Origin: Lachnospiraceae bacterium
GTDB lineage: Bacteria > Bacillota > Clostridia > Lachnospirales > Lachnospiraceae
Direction: 5' to 3'
NCBI GenBank assembly: GCA_017482485.1
Contig: JAFUMV010000081.1
Location: 4,981-68,980 of the forward strand
DNA length: 64,000 nucleotides
In this document: positions 21,836 through 54,716 of the stretch, one piece after another
Layout of the letters: each line of letters starts with the position of its first letter
How positions within the stretch are numbered: position 1 is the stretch's first letter
Position numbers and translations under genes: made by a program
Notes under the pieces: generated by a model
What the model saw: the letters and a program-made list of their open reading frames with translations, nothing else
Told to the model about the DNA's origin: nothing
Databases searched by the model: none

Positions 21836-24733
21836 TTGAAAGCGACAAAAAAGCTTGTTGTGGGCATTTTGGCCCACGTGGATGCCGGCAAAACAACGCT
21901 GGCAGAGAGCCTTTTATATAAAACGGGAAGCATCCGGAAAATGGGAAGAGTGGATCATCAGGATGCTTTTCTGGATACCGATGCAATGGAAAAAGCACGG
22001 GGCATCACCATTTTTTCCAAGCAGGCCCGCTTTGACCTGGGAGAGTATGAGATTACGCTTTTGGATACGCCGGGACATGTGGATTTTTCGGCGGAAATGG
22101 AAAGAACCCTGCAGGTGCTGGACTATGCGGTTCTGGTGATCAGCGGCGCCGACGGCGTGCAGGGACATGTGGAGACATTGTGGCGTCTTCTTGCCCGCTA
22201 TCGGATTCCGGTTTTTCTTTTTGTGAACAAAATGGACCAGCCCGGTACTGATGCGGATCGGCTGATGCAGGAACTGCAGGATAAGCTGGATAAAAAATGT
22301 GTGGCCTTTTCAACGGTGACAGAAGATGGGGCGGAAAAACAAAATGCAGCAGGCAGTACAGCGAAAAATCAGAGCGTCAAAGCAGATAAAGAGGGCTGGC
22401 AAACCTGTCAGATTTTGCCGCCGGCCGATTTTATGGAAAATGTTGCGGTTTGCGATGATCAGCTGCTGGAGCGCTATCTGGAGGGCGAAGAACCACAGGA
22501 TGAGGACATCGCAGTCCTGATTGTCCAGCGTAAGATTTTTCCATGCTTTTTTGGCTCGGCGCTGAAGGTGTTCGGCGTGGAAGAGCTTTTGAAGGGGTTG
22601 TATACCTGGCTGTGTCCGAAACAGTATCCGGAACAGTTTGGGGCAAGAGTGTTCAAAATATCCAGAGACGAGCAGGGAAAGCGCCTGACTCATATGAAAA
22701 TTACAGGCGGAAGTCTGAAAGCGAAGATGCTGCTTACGAACCGGCAGGAAGGGATGGAGAGCGAGCAGATCTGGGAGGAAAAGGCGGATCAGCTGCGGCT
22801 TTATTCGGGCGCCTCTTTTGTGCCGGCAGCGGAAGCTTCTGCGGGCATGATCTGTGCGGTGACCGGTCTGACGCAGACTTTTGCCGGTCAGGGATTTGGA
22901 ATTGATCGGGAAGTAGTGCTTCCCGTGCTGGAGCCGGTCCTGACCTATCGGATAGAGCTTCCTGAGGATGATGTGAAAAGTGATCCCCACAGCATGTATA
23001 TGAAGTTAAAACAGCTGGAGGAAGAAGAGCCGGAGCTTTCCGTGATCTGGCAGGAGGAGTCCAGGGAAATCCATGCGCAGGTCATGGGCGATGTACAGAT
23101 GGAAATTCTGAAAAACCAGATCAAAGACCGGTTTGGTGTGACCGCAGAATTCGGAGAAGGCAGCATTGTATACAAGGAGACCATTGCCGACAAGGTGGAA
23201 GGCGTGGGACATTTTGAACCGCTGCGCCATTATGCGGAGGTGCATTTGATTCTGGAACCGCTTGAGCGGGGAGCAGGCCTGCAGTTTGCTGCAGATGTAA
23301 GCGAAGATGTGCTGGACCGCAACTGGCAGAGACTGGTGCTGACCCATCTGGAAGAGAAAAAGCACAAAGGTGTGCTGGTTGGCGGTGAAATCACCGATAT
23401 GAAAATCACCCTGGCGGATGGCCGTGCCCATTTGAAACATACGGAGGGCGGCGATTTTCGGCAGGCCACTTACCGCGCGGTTCGACACGGGCTGATGAAT
23501 GCAGAAAGCGTGCTGCTGGAGCCGGTGTATGCGTTTACGCTGGAAGTGCCTTCGGAGAACATCGGCAGAGCCATGACAGACATACAGAAAATGCAGGGGA
23601 GCTTTGGACAGCCTTCGCTGGAAGGAGAATTTTCCGTGCTGAAGGGCAAAGCACCGGTGGCTGCCATGAGCGGTTATCAGCGGGAAGTTACCGCCTATAC
23701 GAAGGGACGCGGGAAATTAAACTGTGTGCCGGGCGGTTACGAGGTGTGCCACAACGCAGAGGAGGTGATTGAAAAATCCTCCTATGATCCTGAAGCGGAT
23801 CTGAAAAATCCGACAGGTTCCGTATTCTGTGCCCATGGCGCAGGCTTTGTGGTGCCCTGGTATGAGGTGGAAGAGTACATGCATCTGGAAAGCTGCCTGG
23901 CACCGAAGCTGACAGAGGAAGAAAAGCTGGCGCTGGCGGCCAGGCAGGCCGAAGAAGCGGCACAGAGCAAAGGGCGCCGGGAAGTTTCATTGCCGGAAGG
24001 CGTCAGCAACGAAGAGCTGGAAGAGATTTTTGCCCGGACCTATCATGCCAATAAGAAAGAGCGCTACAGTTATAAAAAGAAAAAAGAGCCGCCAACGAAT
24101 GTGACCAGACGCTGGTCAGGCCTGCAGAATGCTGCGGAAACCCAGCGGATGCCGGGGCAGAAGTCGGTTTCCTATTACAGCAACAAAAAGAATGTGCAGG
24201 ATACGACGGAATATCTGCTGGTGGACGGCTATAACATCATTTTTGCGTGGGAAGATCTGCGGGAACTGGCAGCGGTCAACATTGAAAGTGCCCGGAATAA
24301 GCTGATGGACATTCTGTCCAACTATCAGGGCTTTCATAAATGTGTGCTGATTCTGGTCTTTGATGCTTACCGCGTAGAAGGCGGTGTGGGCAGCGTTATG
24401 AAGTATCACAACATTGATGTGGTTTTTACAAAGGAAGCGGAAACTGCGGATCAGTATATTGAAAAAACGGCACATAAGCTGGGCCGGGAAAATCCGGTGA
24501 CGGTAGCAACCTCTGATGCGCTGGAGCAGGTGATCATTTACGGACAGGGTGCCCGCAGACTCTCCGCCAGAGAGCTTCTGGAAGAGGTTGAATTCACGAA
24601 ACAGCAGATTCGGGAAGTATGGCGCAAAAAGCACAGCGATGCCAAAAACTACCTGTTTGACCATCTGCCGGAGGACATGGTGGATATGGTGGAAGATGTG
24701 AGGCTGGGGCTGAGAGAGTTCGGTGAAGAGTAG
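21836..24733 (+). CDS. TetM/EF-G-like translational GTPase fused to a C-terminal NYN (YacP/Rae1-like) nuclease domain
   Basis: G motifs HVDAGKTT, RGITI, DTPGHVDF and NKMD; EF-G-like domains III-V; C-terminal LLVDGYNII...LVFDAY...ETADQYIE...VATSD. Confidence 0.9.
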   Translation: MKATKKLVVGILAHVDAGKTTLAESLLYKTGSIRKMGRVDHQDAFLDTDAMEKARGITIFSKQARFDLGEYEITLLDTPGHVDFSAEMERTLQVLDYAVLVISGADGVQGHVETLWRLLARYRIPVFLFVNKMDQPGTDADRLMQELQDKLDKKCVAFSTVTEDGAEKQNAAGSTAKNQSVKADKEGWQTCQILPPADFMENVAVCDDQLLERYLEGEEPQDEDIAVLIVQRKIFPCFFGSALKVFGVEELLKGLYTWLCPKQYPEQFGARVFKISRDEQGKRLTHMKITGGSLKAKMLLTNRQEGMESEQIWEEKADQLRLYSGASFVPAAEASAGMICAVTGLTQTFAGQGFGIDREVVLPVLEPVLTYRIELPEDDVKSDPHSMYMKLKQLEEEEPELSVIWQEESREIHAQVMGDVQMEILKNQIKDRFGVTAEFGEGSIVYKETIADKVEGVGHFEPLRHYAEVHLILEPLERGAGLQFAADVSEDVLDRNWQRLVLTHLEEKKHKGVLVGGEITDMKITLADGRAHLKHTEGGDFRQATYRAVRHGLMNAESVLLEPVYAFTLEVPSENIGRAMTDIQKMQGSFGQPSLEGEFSVLKGKAPVAAMSGYQREVTAYTKGRGKLNCVPGGYEVCHNAEEVIEKSSYDPEADLKNPTGSVFCAHGAGFVVPWYEVEEYMHLESCLAPKLTEEEKLALAARQAEEAAQSKGRREVSLPEGVSNEELEEIFARTYHANKKERYSYKKKKEPPTNVTRRWSGLQNAAETQRMPGQKSVSYYSNKKNVQDTTEYLLVDGYNIIFAWEDLRELAAVNIESARNKLMDILSNYQGFHKCVLILVFDAYRVEGGVGSVMKYHNIDVVFTKEAETADQYIEKTAHKLGRENPVTVATSDALEQVIIYGQGARRLSARELLEEVEFTKQQIREVWRKKHSDAKNYLFDHLPEDMVDMVEDVRLGLREFGEE

Positions 24734-24801: not shown

Positions 24802-24831
24802 TTGACGTGGGGCCGCAGAATGCTCTATAAT
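24802..24831 (+). promoter_or_regulatory. SigA promoter
   Basis: TTGACG-18bp-TATAAT. Confidence 0.6.
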
Positions 24832-24852
24832 AACAAAAGGAATGACAATGAG

Positions 24853-24887
24853 GCTGGGGATTACGATTTGTAGTTCCCGGCTTTTTT
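24853..24887 (+). terminator. Intrinsic terminator, possibly an attenuator
   Basis: 12-bp stem GCTGGGGATTAC/GTAGTTCCCGGC (with G-U pairs), 5-nt loop, then TTTTTT. Confidence 0.7.
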
Positions 24888-24923
24888 ACTCTACAGGAAT
24901 TTTCTTCGAAAATTCCTTAGAGC

Positions 24924-25084
24924 AAAAATGCGCTTCGCGCAACGATGCGTACTCGCAGCGCCCAGGCAATCTACGATTGCCGGAAATCATCGCTTCGCGA
25001 CCGCGCTCGATGCGGAGTGTGCGCTAATGCGCACACCTTTTTATGCGGCAGGAAGGTCCGACGGATGTTTGTTGCATAAAAAGC
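24924..25084. repeat. Cluster of short GC-rich palindromes (REP-like, family B)
   Basis: TGCGC-TTC-GCGCA, GGCAATC-TAC-GATTGCC, GTGTGCGC-TAAT-GCGCACAC and TTTTATGCGGCA/TGTTGCATAAAA. A 23-bp core is shared with 54694-54716. Confidence 0.5.
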
Positions 25085-25124
25085 TGCCTGGCGGGAGCAT
25101 TTTGCGCTGTTGGAGTAATTTGAA

Positions 25125-26036
25125 ATGTTTATGGAAAAAGATGAATTTTTAAAAAAGTACGCCCTGACCCAGGAACAGTTTGAAGAAGCCGGATTGCCCT
25201 GGGAAGAGCTTGCGGCCATTGCCGAGGACTATTCAAATCGCCTGGAAGAATTTTACAGGATCCGGGATTTATTTCTCCGGGAATTTATTGAGAATAAGGA
25301 AGAACAGGCCGGTTTGCATTCTTATCGAACCCGCGTCAAGACGCCGGAACATCTGGTGGAGAAGATCATCCGCAGAAGAATCGAAAATTATCGTAAGTAC
25401 AAGGATTTAAACAGACATAACTACCTGAAGTTTGTGACGGATCTCATCGGCTTTCGGGGACTATTACTGTACCGGGAGGACTGGGTGATTTTTCACAAAT
25501 ATCTGCTTTCTCATTTTGAAAACAAGCCTGCCTGGTATGTCTATGACTGCCTGAAGGATTATGAACAGGACAGAGATATGTATATGGTGGAGCCGCCTAA
25601 GGTTCACATGCGGCAGGGAGATTTCAGCGATATTTATGCGGACTGGATTTCCAGCGACAATATTTATGATCAGAAATATTATCGTTCTGTGCACTACATT
25701 CTCAAATACCGCGGCGTCTATCTGGAAATTCAGGTAAGGACGCTGTTTGAGGAAGGCTGGGGAGAAATTGACCATCATATTTTATATCCTTACAAAAAGA
25801 AAGATCCCATGCTGACGGAATTTTCCGAACTTCTAAATCGACTGGCGGGCATGGGAGATGAAATGGCTTCTTTTTACCGGAGACTTCAGAATGTGCCGGG
25901 AGATGCTTTCAGGGACAAAAAGAGCATGGTGGACACAAGGACAGAATTTGAGGCTCATAAGCAGCAGACGAAAAAATTTGAGCTGGACGAGATCGTTACT
26001 GTGGAAGATGCCATTTTTTCCGTGATTTCCAAATAG
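25125..26036 (+). CDS. RelA/SpoT synthetase-domain protein (small alarmone synthetase-like)
   Basis: RVKT...EK, TDLIGFR, YRSVHY and EIQVRT...WGEIDH motifs. No hydrolase, TGS or ACT domain. Confidence 0.88.
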   Translation: MFMEKDEFLKKYALTQEQFEEAGLPWEELAAIAEDYSNRLEEFYRIRDLFLREFIENKEEQAGLHSYRTRVKTPEHLVEKIIRRRIENYRKYKDLNRHNYLKFVTDLIGFRGLLLYREDWVIFHKYLLSHFENKPAWYVYDCLKDYEQDRDMYMVEPPKVHMRQGDFSDIYADWISSDNIYDQKYYRSVHYILKYRGVYLEIQVRTLFEEGWGEIDHHILYPYKKKDPMLTEFSELLNRLAGMGDEMASFYRRLQNVPGDAFRDKKSMVDTRTEFEAHKQQTKKFELDEIVTVEDAIFSVISK

Positions 26037-26048
26037 GAGGACAGGTGA

Positions 26049-26279
26049 ATGAATCAGAATTTTCCAGGGATACCAAGAAGCGCCATTGAAAGCGCCGACC
26101 GGATGACAGCGCTGGTGAAAAACGGAGCTATCCGTCAGCATCTGCTGGGAGATACCTCTCAGACCCGCTACGGGACGGTGGAAGATAAAGGGATGAACGA
26201 TTACTGCAACTTTTTGCAGACAAAGCTGTGCTACGAGATTTTGCAGCTGGAAGGAAATTTGTGCGATGAAAAATATTGA
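26049..26279 (+). CDS. Hypothetical protein (76 aa)
   Basis: Strong RBS AGGAGG, 12 nt after the upstream stop; overlaps the next gene by 14 nt. Confidence 0.6.
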   Translation: MNQNFPGIPRSAIESADRMTALVKNGAIRQHLLGDTSQTRYGTVEDKGMNDYCNFLQTKLCYEILQLEGNLCDEKY

Positions 26280-26808
26280 AAGCGTATATTTGAATTATGA
26301 AGGACTGTTGGATGAATTCGGAGAGGAAATTATCCACAGCCGATTTGCTTTTTTATATAAAGAGTGCATGGAATTTTTAAAAAGTGTGCATCTGCAGGAC
26401 AGTGTGCGGGTGGATGAGGTGATTCTGATGCATATGGTGCTGGACTATTTTACAGATGTATCCCGGCTCAAAAGATTTCATCATATTCATCACATCAATG
26501 AAATCAAGGTGATTTCCTACGAGAGCTTCTGGCTGCTGCGCAGAAAGCCTCTGCAGGTGGTAAAGCAGGGACAGCAGGACGATGTACTTGCTTTTGTGAA
26601 TGAGAAGTTTGTATTCTCCAGAATTGCAGCATTTCTGGTAAAGAACAAAAAGAATCTGGTCTTAAAGGACGGAGACAAAAAATCATTTTTGAATTATCTG
26701 GACACGCTGTACTACTTTTTAAAATACAGGCAATATGATCCACAGGTGCTGGAATTAATGATTCTGGGCTTCAAGGCCGGAGAACTTTGGGGCAGGCAGG
26801 AAGAATAG
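26266..26808 (+). CDS. Hypothetical protein (180 aa), helical, unassigned family
   Basis: Clean ORF coupled to both neighbours, with conserved-looking blocks DYFTDVSRLKRFH and FWLLRRKPLQ. Confidence 0.8.
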   Translation: MKNIESVYLNYEGLLDEFGEEIIHSRFAFLYKECMEFLKSVHLQDSVRVDEVILMHMVLDYFTDVSRLKRFHHIHHINEIKVISYESFWLLRRKPLQVVKQGQQDDVLAFVNEKFVFSRIAAFLVKNKKNLVLKDGDKKSFLNYLDTLYYFLKYRQYDPQVLELMILGFKAGELWGRQEE

Positions 26809-26820
26809 TTTAAGGAGGGG

Positions 26821-54667: not shown

Positions 54668-54716
54668 GATGTCCGCTTTGCGGACCCGCCGCGCAGGCAA
54701 TTTATGATTGCCGGAA
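54668..54716. repeat. Family B palindrome cluster
   Basis: CAGGCAATTTATGATTGCCGGAA (21/23 identical to 24963-24985), plus TCCGC-TTT-GCGGA. Confidence 0.5.

What the first reader, a model, noticed from the sequence alone, without database searches (positions are those of the whole stretch)
25125..26808. Three-gene module: small RelA/SpoT synthetase plus two unknown coupled ORFs (candidate toxSAS-like, defence or stress system)
Seen: a synthetase-only RSH protein followed 12 nt later by a 76-aa ORF, which overlaps a 180-aa ORF. Its motifs differ from typical RelP/RelQ: RVKTPEH instead of RxKxxxS, YYRSVH instead of GYRSxH, and EEGWGEIDH. The trio sits among unrelated metabolic genes. Known: divergent small alarmone synthetases form toxin-antitoxin and anti-phage systems (toxSAS, CapRel) that make (p)ppApp or pyrophosphorylate tRNA, neutralised by adjacent small proteins. 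Inference: this may be such a module with an undescribed three-component layout. It is the best lead for a new system in this window.
Basis: partly seen in the sequence, partly recalled or inferred. Interest (0 to 1): 0.75.

Follow-up and report, generated by a model that had tools for sequence, protein, structure and literature searches.

The report
Alarmone synthetase with two unknown partners
A gut Lachnospiraceae bacterium carries a three-gene operon: a RelP/RelQ-like stress-signal (alarmone) synthetase, then two small proteins of a large, unnamed family with no recognisable fold. The three have been inherited together across many genera, so this looks like a new way of controlling alarmone synthesis, though its trigger and purpose remain untested.

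Summary
The window holds SAS (25125-26036), orf76 (26049-26279) and orf180 (26266-26808). They are tightly coupled, all three are under purifying selection, and they keep this order in about 90 loci.

The toxSAS reading is only partly supported:
- In sequence and in predicted fold the enzyme is closest to the housekeeping RelP/RelQ, not to CapRel or the other toxSAS.
- No PADLOC, Pfam or antitoxin family matches any of the three proteins.
- The trio is inherited vertically and its codon GC is normal.
- Two lineages lost both partners yet kept a catalytically intact SAS under strong purifying selection. That argues against an obligatory antitoxin.

New findings:
- A C-terminal helix motif occurs in SAS that carry the partners (46/53) and in no stand-alone SAS (0/30). 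It is probably the docking site.
- orf76 and orf180 occur as natural fusions.
- orf180 belongs to a family of more than 900 sequence clusters. Its confident all-alpha model has no structural match.
- The orf76/orf180 pair also occurs without any SAS in other bacteria: once inside a type I R-M operon and three times behind membrane proteins.

Best reading (0.42): a partner-regulated alarmone synthetase. A toxSAS-like TA or defence system (0.28) is not excluded.

The parts
24802..24831 (+). Promoter-like site TTGACG-18-TATAAT, the probable start of the module's own transcript
   Evidence: It matches 11 of 12 consensus positions. The hexamers are kept upstream of the SAS in relatives L001 and L004. 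This is a consensus match only and is not shown to be functional.
24850..24884 (+). Conserved hairpin just downstream of the promoter-like site. In the window it is followed by a T-run, so it looks like a terminator.
   Evidence: Found. L001 has the same hairpin with base changes that keep the pairing.
25125..26036 (+). Small alarmone synthetase (SAS), 303 aa, a divergent RelP/RelQ-like subfamily
   Evidence: Pfam RelA_SpoT, E 9e-12. 2049 homologues. AF2 pLDDT 82.6. Foldseek top hits are RelP/RelQ, E 2e-8. The catalytic residues R70, K72, D106, G109, R111, Y186, R187, H190, E201 and Q203 are invariant in 83 sequences.
25995..26033 (+). C-terminal amphipathic helix of the SAS (res 291-303, IVTVEDAIFSVISK region). 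It is the presumed docking element for Orf76/Orf180.
   Evidence: The motif T-x-x-D-[AC]-[IL]-x-S-[VI]-[LI]-x-E occurs in 46/53 partner-linked SAS and 0/30 stand-alone SAS. T292 is invariant. The model predicts a helix at 293-301.
26049..26279 (+). orf76, a small partner protein of 76 aa (core motif G-x-I-R/K-x-H-x-L-G-x-x-S ... Y-x-x-F)
   Evidence: Present in 48/50 module loci. dN/dS 0.02-0.36. Homologous to the ~70-aa gene that precedes orf180-like genes in loci without a SAS (alignment A8). No Pfam family.
26266..26808 (+). orf180, an all-alpha partner protein of 180 aa from a large unnamed family
   Evidence: AF2 pLDDT 84.8, pTM 0.81. No Foldseek match with E < 2 in PDB or BFVD. 916 representative clusters at E <= 1e-3. 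No Pfam family; PADLOC gave nothing for orf180 itself and only two single-member hits (DndD E 0.006, CARF6 E 0.016) among 27 relatives, with no recurrent family. Invariant across the family: D60, K81, W89, P95, N112, E113, Y150, E163.

Best explanation
This is a partner-regulated alarmone synthetase operon.

The first gene encodes an active RelP/RelQ-like pyrophosphokinase. It most likely makes a (p)ppGpp-type alarmone from ATP and a guanine nucleotide.

The next two genes are translationally coupled and encode Orf76 and Orf180, which act together as one complex. That complex docks on a short C-terminal helix found only in SAS that carry these partners. It gates the enzyme, most simply as a reversible brake or switch that answers an unknown cue. 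The result is a controlled burst of alarmone rather than constitutive synthesis.

The Orf76/Orf180 pair is an older, self-contained two-protein cassette that exists alone in other bacteria. Here it serves as the input module of the SAS.

Shown:
- The enzyme family and its intact catalytic core.
- Conservation, coupling and co-inheritance of the three genes.
- The exclusive link between the C-terminal tail and the partners.
- Natural Orf76-Orf180 fusions.
- The SAS remains viable without the partners.

Inferred:
- Physical docking on the tail.
- The direction of regulation.
- The nucleotide product.
- The cue.
For: Enzyme:
- Pfam RelA_SpoT. The only PDB sequence relatives are RelP/RelQ.
- Foldseek ranks 1-36 are RelP/RelQ, E 2e-8 to 4e-5.
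- All synthetase motif residues are invariant in 83 sequences.

Module:
- The order SAS-orf76-orf180 is the only association conserved across genera. The flanks are genus-specific.
- 89 of 130 loci that hold an orf180 homologue are SAS-linked.
- The gaps are 12 nt and -14 nt in the window, and -4/-8/-14 nt overlaps are common elsewhere.
- All three genes are under purifying selection.

Co-evolution:
- The orf180 tree reproduces the SAS tree clade by clade.

Docking element:
- The C-terminal motif is in 46/53 partner-linked SAS and 0/30 stand-alone SAS.
- The deletion that removed orf76 and orf180 in L010/L012 also removed this tail.

Orf76 and Orf180 work together:
- In-frame natural fusions exist: P0135, P0137, P0184, and the distant P0330/P0358.
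- Their start and stop codons overlap.

Not an obligatory antitoxin:
- The stand-alone clade (Enterocloster, Coprococcus comes, Faecalimonas and others) and L010/L012 keep the SAS at dN/dS 0.035-0.077 with every catalytic residue intact.

Not recently acquired:
- GC3 is like the neighbours.
- The pair has no plasmid or phage hits.

Precedent, from my own knowledge plus a PDB title: protein partners that tune RSH enzymes exist, for example Rel-DarB (8acu is listed).
Against: - No interaction, activity or product was measured.
- The multimer prediction could not be run.
- Jimmy et al. 2020 found that conserved TA-like arrangements around SAS genes predict toxicity.
- Relatives of this SAS occur in phage-derived families (PHROG 2211, E 2e-35). 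One 395-aa relative sits next to an integrase in a Ralstonia record.
- The pair on its own behaves like a mobile cassette: its contexts vary, one copy lies inside a type I R-M operon, and three lie behind multi-TM proteins.
- Nothing identifies a cue.
- Orf180's invariant polar residues could equally mark an enzyme or a ligand pocket.
Confidence: 0.42

Rival explanations
1. A toxSAS-like toxin-antitoxin or abortive-infection system. The SAS is a growth-arresting effector that overproduces alarmone, makes (pp)pApp, or pyrophosphorylates tRNA. Orf76 and Orf180 neutralise it and release it on phage infection or stress.
For: - A conserved, overlapping three-gene arrangement is the criterion that found the toxSAS (PMC7229694).
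- The tail-plus-partner logic recalls CapRel's C-terminal antitoxin/sensor domain (PMC9712102 abstract).
- The SAS has phage-family relatives (PHROG 2211). A 35%-identical, 395-aa homologue with an extra C-terminal domain lies beside an integrase.
- The partner pair is an autonomous cassette in varied contexts, once between hsdM and hsdS.
- In three loci a multi-TM protein sits where the SAS would be.
Against: - The SAS survives loss of both partners in two lineages, with catalytic residues intact and dN/dS 0.035-0.077.
- It is closest to the non-toxic RelP/RelQ in sequence and fold.
- PADLOC gives no supporting hit.
- The partners match no known antitoxin domain.
- Inheritance is vertical and congruent across genera, and GC3 is normal.
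- The pair is absent from plasmid and phage records.
- Neighbours of the SAS-free pairs are mostly housekeeping genes.
Confidence: 0.28
2. The core system is the Orf76/Orf180 pair itself, for example a type II-like TA with Orf180 as the toxin or effector and Orf76 as its small antagonist. The SAS is a third, accessory component. Its alarmone, or its binding, switches the pair. Alternatively Orf180 is a dedicated receptor for the SAS product.
For: - The pair occurs without a SAS in about 20 loci. It has a small upstream gene and a larger downstream gene with overlapping stop and start, as in type II TA operons.
- Orf180 has a strictly conserved set of polar and aromatic residues, which suggests an active site or ligand pocket.
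- SAS linkage appears on both sides of the SAS-free clade in the orf180 tree.
- The pair can be lost while the SAS stays.
Against: - Orf76 has no recognisable DNA-binding domain.
- Orf180 shows no similarity to any toxin fold.
- In Lachnospiraceae the pair is never seen without the SAS among the 80 genome loci.
- Decayed copies (L017, L018) lose parts of orf76 while keeping an orf180 reading frame. That would be risky if Orf180 were a toxin.
Confidence: 0.17
3. The three genes are only neighbours kept together by synteny. The SAS is an ordinary housekeeping ppGpp synthetase, and the two ORFs are functionally unrelated to it.
For: - SAS homologues function alone in many genera.
- Nothing biochemical links the three genes.
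Against: - The trio stays together while both flanks change between genera.
- The tail motif is found only with the partners.
- The trees are congruent.
- The intergenic distances are 12 nt and -14 nt.
Confidence: 0.04

Closest known systems
RelP (SAS2/YwaC) and RelQ (SAS1/YjbM) of Firmicutes
   Same: - A single-domain RSH synthetase.
- The best and only PDB sequence relatives (E 5e-5 to 2e-3).
- The best structural matches (Foldseek E 2e-8, TM about 0.55-0.66 on the target).
- All synthetase motif residues are present.
   Different: - Only 15-21% identity.
- It scores 28 bits against the NCBIfam YjbM equivalog cut-off of 320.
- It is about 90 aa longer: a roughly 55-aa insertion between strands (res ~131-185) and a 50-aa C-terminal tail.
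- S is replaced by H in RxKxxxS, and K by P in the H..YK region.
- It is encoded with two partner genes, whereas relP and relQ are, to my knowledge, monocistronic.
[quoted passage not shown] 2020, PMC7229694)
   Same: - A SAS in a conserved, overlapping two- or three-gene operon with small non-homologous partner genes.
- FaRel is also the centre of a three-gene operon.
   Different: - No sequence match to solved toxSAS.
- The partners are not DUF4065/Panacea, SAH or any Pfam family.
- Both partners lie downstream.
- The SAS is evolutionarily viable without them.
- Toxicity is untested.
CapRel(SJ46), a fused toxSAS-antitoxin anti-phage sensor (PMC9712102; PDB 7ztb)
   Same: - The RSH fold (Foldseek E 8.8e-5).
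- A C-terminal element beyond the catalytic core that could mediate control. The 395-aa Ralstonia relative has a fused C-terminal domain.
   Different: - It ranks below all RelP/RelQ chains.
- Here the C-terminal element is a 12-residue helix plus two separate proteins, not a fused pseudo-zinc-finger domain.
- The locus is chromosomal, not in a prophage.
Protein partners that tune long RSH enzymes, e.g. DarB-Rel (PDB 8acu)
   Same: A separate small protein binds an alarmone synthetase and changes its output. This is the mechanism proposed here.
   Different: - The proteins are unrelated.
- The known cases involve long bifunctional Rel/SpoT and unlinked genes, not a SAS with operon-encoded partners.
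- The resemblance is functional and comes from my own knowledge. It was not tested here.
cloRel, a Firmicutes-only SAS subgroup (Atkinson et al. 2011, PMC3153485)
   Same: It is a SAS subgroup listed as restricted to Firmicutes and present in Clostridia. That is the taxonomic range of this family.
   Different: The paper's text gives no sequences, HMMs or gene neighbourhood, so membership could not be tested. No partner genes are mentioned.

Membership tests
RSH superfamily, small alarmone synthetase class | RelA_SpoT synthetase domain above Pfam's threshold | tested here: met
   PF04607, 45.7 bits against a cut-off of 27, residues 69-225.
RSH superfamily, small alarmone synthetase class | Conserved synthetase motifs (RxK, DxxGxR, YRSxH, ExQxRT) | tested here: met
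   R70, K72, D106, G109, R111, Y186, R187, H190, E201, Q203 and T206 are invariant in 83 family members.
RSH superfamily, small alarmone synthetase class | No hydrolase (HD) or TGS/ACT domains | tested here: met
   The protein is 303 aa with a single Pfam domain. The model shows one RSH fold plus a tail.
RelQ/RelP (housekeeping SAS of Firmicutes) | Scores as an equivalog of YjbM in NCBIfam | tested here: not met
   NF053588 scores 28.2 bits against a cut-off of 320. It is the closest relative but not a member.
RelQ/RelP (housekeeping SAS of Firmicutes) | Homotetramer with an allosteric pppGpp cleft (RelQ) | not testable with these tools
   Only a monomer model was possible.
toxSAS (FaRel, FaRel2, PhRel, PhRel2, CapRel) | Sequence or structure membership in one of the validated toxic subfamilies | tested here: not met
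   The profile search of PDB at E <= 1 returns only RelP/RelQ. Foldseek puts CapRel at rank 37, E 8.8e-5, behind 36 RelP/RelQ chains. The subfamily HMMs of Jimmy et al. were not available.
toxSAS (FaRel, FaRel2, PhRel, PhRel2, CapRel) | Conserved, often overlapping, adjacent small gene(s) | tested here: met
   89 SAS-linked loci, with overlaps of 4-14 nt.
toxSAS (FaRel, FaRel2, PhRel, PhRel2, CapRel) | The SAS is toxic and is neutralised by the neighbouring gene product | not testable with these tools
   This needs expression assays. Indirect evidence against an obligatory antitoxin: the SAS is retained at dN/dS 0.035-0.077 after partner loss.
toxSAS (FaRel, FaRel2, PhRel, PhRel2, CapRel) | The partner belongs to a known antitoxin family (Panacea/DUF4065, SAH and others) | tested here: not met
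   No Pfam family recurs for orf76, orf180 or 53 diverse relatives.
Catalogued anti-phage defence systems (PADLOC-DB v2) | Any component matches a defence-system model | tested here: not met
   No hit at E <= 1 for the three proteins. Only two single-member chance-level hits among 27 orf180 relatives.
HEPN toxins (considered for Orf180 because of an R-x4-H string, RLKRFH) | HEPN four-helix fold and an invariant Rx4-6H catalytic motif | tested here: not met
   No significant Foldseek hit; the best HEPN chain, 7ae9, has E 7.0 and TM 0.19. The H is replaced by Q or E in several members.
cloRel subgroup (Atkinson 2011) | Placement in the cloRel clade or HMM | not testable with these tools
   The paper's text gives only the name and 'Firmicutes'.

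The most novel reading that the evidence does not exclude
Orf76/Orf180 is a widespread two-protein sensor-effector cassette with a new fold. It can be wired to different outputs: an alarmone synthetase here, membrane proteins elsewhere, or nothing. The SAS-linked form would then be an undescribed three-component toxSAS-like defence or growth-arrest system. In it, the partners hold the synthetase by its C-terminal helix and release it on infection or stress.
Probability: 0.28. Interest if true: 0.8.

Novelty: new variant of a known kind. Interest (0 to 1): 0.62.

Why it matters
Why bacteria carry several small alarmone synthetases, and how the small ones are controlled after translation, is still largely open. 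This locus makes the question directly testable:
- It is a SAS subfamily of abundant gut Lachnospiraceae.
- It has co-evolved with two dedicated partner proteins and carries a partner-specific docking helix.
- Natural controls already exist, in lineages that lost the partners and the helix together.

It also gives a first functional handle on a large protein family that has no name, no Pfam model and no structural relative (more than 900 clusters at 50% identity). If the toxin or defence reading is right, it adds a three-component layout and a new neutraliser fold to the toxSAS systems.

Tried and rejected
- **Riboswitch or known RNA in the 391-nt upstream spacer:** no Rfam match at E <= 1.
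- **HEPN-like Orf180 (R-x4-H):** rejected on fold and on conservation of the H.
- **Natural fusion P0135 as a stand-in for the Orf76-Orf180 complex:** MAFFT misplaced the short orf76 rows. I dropped this and used the last structure job on the SAS.
- **Plasmid and phage records for orf180:** no tblastn hit.
- **IMG/VR contigs:** none confirmed for the SAS. For orf180 there were only two distant loci.
- **Transcript evidence:** only DNA gut-metagenome runs hold the locus, so co-transcription was not tested.
- **Defence-island signal around SAS-free pairs:** a Pfam census of 91 neighbouring proteins showed mostly housekeeping families and no enrichment.
- **Literature:** no paper links alarmone synthetases with Lachnospiraceae. 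The supplementary RSH tables of Jimmy et al. are not held.
- **Recent horizontal transfer:** GC3 of the trio (0.50-0.57) falls within that of its neighbours (0.47-0.59).
Full report
**1. The observation**

The window has three consecutive + strand ORFs exactly as described:
- SAS, 25125-26036, 303 aa.
- orf76, 26049-26279. It starts 12 nt after the SAS stop and is preceded by AGGAGG.
- orf180, 26266-26808. It overlaps orf76 by 14 nt.

The SAS carries a RelA_SpoT synthetase domain (PF04607, E 9e-12, residues 69-225) and nothing else. NCBIfam gives only a far sub-threshold match to the RelQ (YjbM) equivalog, 28 bits against a cut-off of 320. Neither small ORF matches Pfam, NCBIfam or PADLOC.

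The flanks are unrelated genes. Upstream is an EF-G-like GTPase fused to a YacP-type NYN domain. Downstream are an MFS transporter, a glycerophosphodiester phosphodiesterase and GreA.

**2. Is the trio real and conserved?**

A protein search found 2049 SAS homologues. Those that carry a source name are called GTP pyrophosphokinase of Lachnospiraceae or Eubacteriales.

A scan of one genome per species returned 80 loci:
- orf180 follows the SAS in 50 of them, down to 42% SAS identity.
- Where tblastn missed orf76, the SAS-orf180 gap is 211-244 nt. It holds a 63-89 aa ORF with the same core motif, so orf76 is present in 48 of the 50.

A home-made flanking-gene analysis shows that SAS>orf76>orf180 is the only arrangement conserved between genera. 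The flanks are conserved only within genera.

All three genes are under purifying selection: dN/dS is 0.02-0.14 for SAS and orf180, and 0.02-0.36 for orf76. So orf76 is a real gene and the module is a unit.

**3. Two kinds of SAS, and a tail that tracks the partners**

A neighbour-joining tree of the 81 SAS sequences separates two groups:
- Partner-linked clades: the window's Eisenbergiella-like group, Sellimonas, Robinsoniella, Fusicatenibacter, Acetatifactor and a second large clade.
- A stand-alone clade nested beside them: Enterocloster, Coprococcus comes, Faecalimonas, Murimonas and others. In these the next gene is unrelated.

Stand-alone SAS are 258-284 aa and partner-linked ones 301-322 aa.

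The extra length ends in a motif, T-x-x-D-[AC]-[IL]-x-S-[VI]-[LI]-x-E. It occurs in 46 of 53 partner-linked SAS; most of the other seven are near-misses of the pattern, and L017 is a decayed copy. It occurs in none of the 30 stand-alone SAS. In the window this is residues 291-303, which the AlphaFold model predicts as a helix.

L010 and L012 lie inside the window's own clade but lack orf76 and orf180. Their SAS is cut at about residue 272, so one deletion removed the tail and both partners together.

The catalytic residues are invariant in both groups. The stand-alone genes evolve at dN/dS 0.035-0.077, and L010 against L012 gives 0.035 at dS 1.1. The enzyme is therefore useful and tolerated without the partners. 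The tail is the obvious candidate for the partners' docking site; that last step is inference.

**4. What the SAS resembles**

- A profile of the family finds only RelP and RelQ among PDB sequences, E 5e-5 to 2e-3. No CapRel, FaRel2, PhRel2 or Tas1 appears at E <= 1.
- The AlphaFold model (pLDDT 82.6) matches RelP/RelQ chains at Foldseek ranks 1-36, E 2e-8 to 4e-5. CapRel follows at 8.8e-5 and the long Rel N-terminal domains at about 1e-4.

The enzyme is a divergent relative of the housekeeping SAS. It has an insertion at about residues 131-185 and the C-terminal tail.

The 'odd' motifs are not a signature of new chemistry. H76 is fixed in the Lachnospiraceae members. More distant SAS that still carry both partners have the canonical RxKxxxS, GYRSxH and H..YK.

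Atkinson et al. 2011 list a Firmicutes-only SAS subgroup, cloRel. This family may be that subgroup, but it could not be tested.

**5. What the partners are**

*Orf180.*
- It gives a confident all-alpha model (pLDDT 84.8, pTM 0.81).
- It has no structural neighbour in the PDB or in BFVD; the best E is above 2.
- It has no PDB sequence relative.
- The word-index search found only 150 relatives. A full HMM search of 1.84 billion representatives found 916 clusters at E <= 1e-3. None of the 27 diverse members matches a recurrent Pfam or PADLOC family.
- The family keeps a strict set of polar and aromatic residues (D60, K81, W89, P95, N112, E113, Y150, E163). That suggests an active site or a ligand pocket.

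*Orf76 and Orf180 act together.* Their genes overlap. In-frame fusions occur in close relatives (P0135, P0137, P0184) and in distant ones (P0330, P0358).

*The pair is older than its link to the SAS.* Among 130 loci with an orf180 homologue:
- 89 are SAS-linked.
- About 17 have no SAS.
- 3 follow a multi-TM protein.
- 20 contigs are too short to tell.

In the SAS-free loci a ~70-aa gene with the same G-K-x-x-K-x-x-L-P-N-x-S core precedes orf180 (alignment A8). Their contexts vary:
- One pair lies between hsdM and hsdS of a type I R-M operon (L088).
- Some lie beside PIN/RHH pairs (L092, L119).
- One follows a 7TM protein (L081).

A Pfam census of 91 neighbouring proteins is dominated by housekeeping families. 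orf180 has no match in plasmid or phage records.

The orf180 tree mirrors the SAS tree within Lachnospiraceae. A second, more divergent SAS-linked group falls on the other side of the SAS-free clade.

**6. Signals that keep the defence/TA reading alive**

- The SAS matches PHROG 2211 (unknown function, E 2e-35).
- A 395-aa homologue, 35% identical over 83% of the SAS and with an extra ~130-aa C-terminal region, lies next to an integrase in a record labelled Ralstonia phage YO102_1 and flagged UNVERIFIED_ORG.
- Jimmy et al. 2020 state that conserved TA-like arrangements around SAS genes indicated toxicity in the five subfamilies they tested. They also suggest that SAS toxicity is a continuum.

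**7. Signals against it**

- Partner loss is tolerated, as shown in section 3.
- Inheritance is vertical and congruent across genera.
- The third-position GC of the trio (0.50-0.57) is like its neighbours (0.47-0.59).
- No defence or antitoxin model matches.
- Decayed copies in Sellimonas and Drancourtella delete parts of orf76 while keeping the orf180 frame.

**8. Expression signals**

A promoter-like site (TTGACG-18-TATAAT, 24802-24831) and a hairpin just after it are conserved in relatives L001 and L004. In other relatives the EF-G/NYN gene ends 14-40 nt before the SAS.

The window has an extra ~220-nt, strongly structured stretch in the leader (z = -6.1), with no Rfam match.

No terminator-like site lies in the 12 nt between orf180 and the MFS gene, so the transcript may run on. 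Only DNA metagenome runs contain the locus, so transcription was not examined.

**9. Verdict**

I judge a partner-regulated RelP/RelQ-like alarmone synthetase the most likely explanation (0.42). The rivals are:
- a toxSAS-like TA or defence system (0.28);
- a pair-centred system with the SAS as an accessory (0.17);
- mere synteny (0.04).

The remainder (about 0.09) is left for readings not considered here.

The SAS is a new member of a known kind. The three-component layout with a partner-specific docking helix, and the Orf76/Orf180 family itself, are to my knowledge undescribed. I found no paper on them.

Noticed in passing
window 21836-24733 (+): A 965-aa fusion of an EF-G/TetM-like translational GTPase (GTP_EFTU, EFG_III, IV and C domains) with a C-terminal YacP-type NYN nuclease domain. 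It lies directly upstream of the SAS in 10 of 80 loci. That includes Coprococcus comes, where its end overlaps the start of a stand-alone SAS. It may be a ribosome-linked partner of the SAS, or just old synteny.
   Followed up: partly
window ~24885-25105 (+): The 391-nt spacer before the SAS holds an extra stretch of about 220 nt that relatives lack. It is GC-richer and very strongly structured (MFE -123.5 kcal/mol, z = -6.1), with a second terminator-like hairpin at 25017-25036. It has no Rfam match. It has a short inverted self-match and a weak match at 54679-54716. It could be a small inserted element or a regulatory leader.
   Followed up: partly
L164 3480-4667 (ON170174.1, 'Ralstonia phage YO102_1', UNVERIFIED_ORG): A 395-aa SAS of the same subfamily (EEGWSEIDH, NRIAGAADEM) with an additional C-terminal region of about 130 aa that has no Pfam match. 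It lies beside an integrase-like ORF on the opposite strand. PHROG 2211 (395-position profile) appears to be this architecture.
   Followed up: partly
L017 6004-7507 and L018 6924-7562: These are decaying or rearranged modules. In a Drancourtella MAG the SAS is fused in frame to the C-terminal half of orf76, and the RLKxFH segment of orf180 is replaced. In the complete genome of Sellimonas caecigallum the N-terminal half of orf76 is fused to orf180 as a 212-aa ORF.
   Followed up: partly
L134 3570-4811: Here the orf76-like and orf180-like genes are preceded only by a 122-aa protein that matches the N-terminal helices of the SAS (73 bits). This is either a truncated SAS or a stand-alone N-terminal fragment.
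   Followed up: no
proteins P0249, P0251 (370 and 363 aa): These are tandem duplications of the orf180 domain within one protein (two matched stretches each). P0326 joins a glutamine amidotransferase N-terminus to an orf180 domain. That may be a gene-calling or assembly chimera.
   Followed up: no
L088 592-7872: A type I restriction-modification operon (HsdR, HsdM, HsdS confirmed by Pfam) has the SAS-free orf76-like/orf180-like pair and a further 296-aa gene inserted between hsdM and hsdS.
   Followed up: partly
window 26809-26820: Only 12 nt, holding an AGGAGG ribosome-binding site and no terminator-like site, separate orf180 from the MFS transporter gene. In several relatives the MFS gene is absent and GDPD follows directly. 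The window's transcript may therefore extend into metabolic genes.
   Followed up: no
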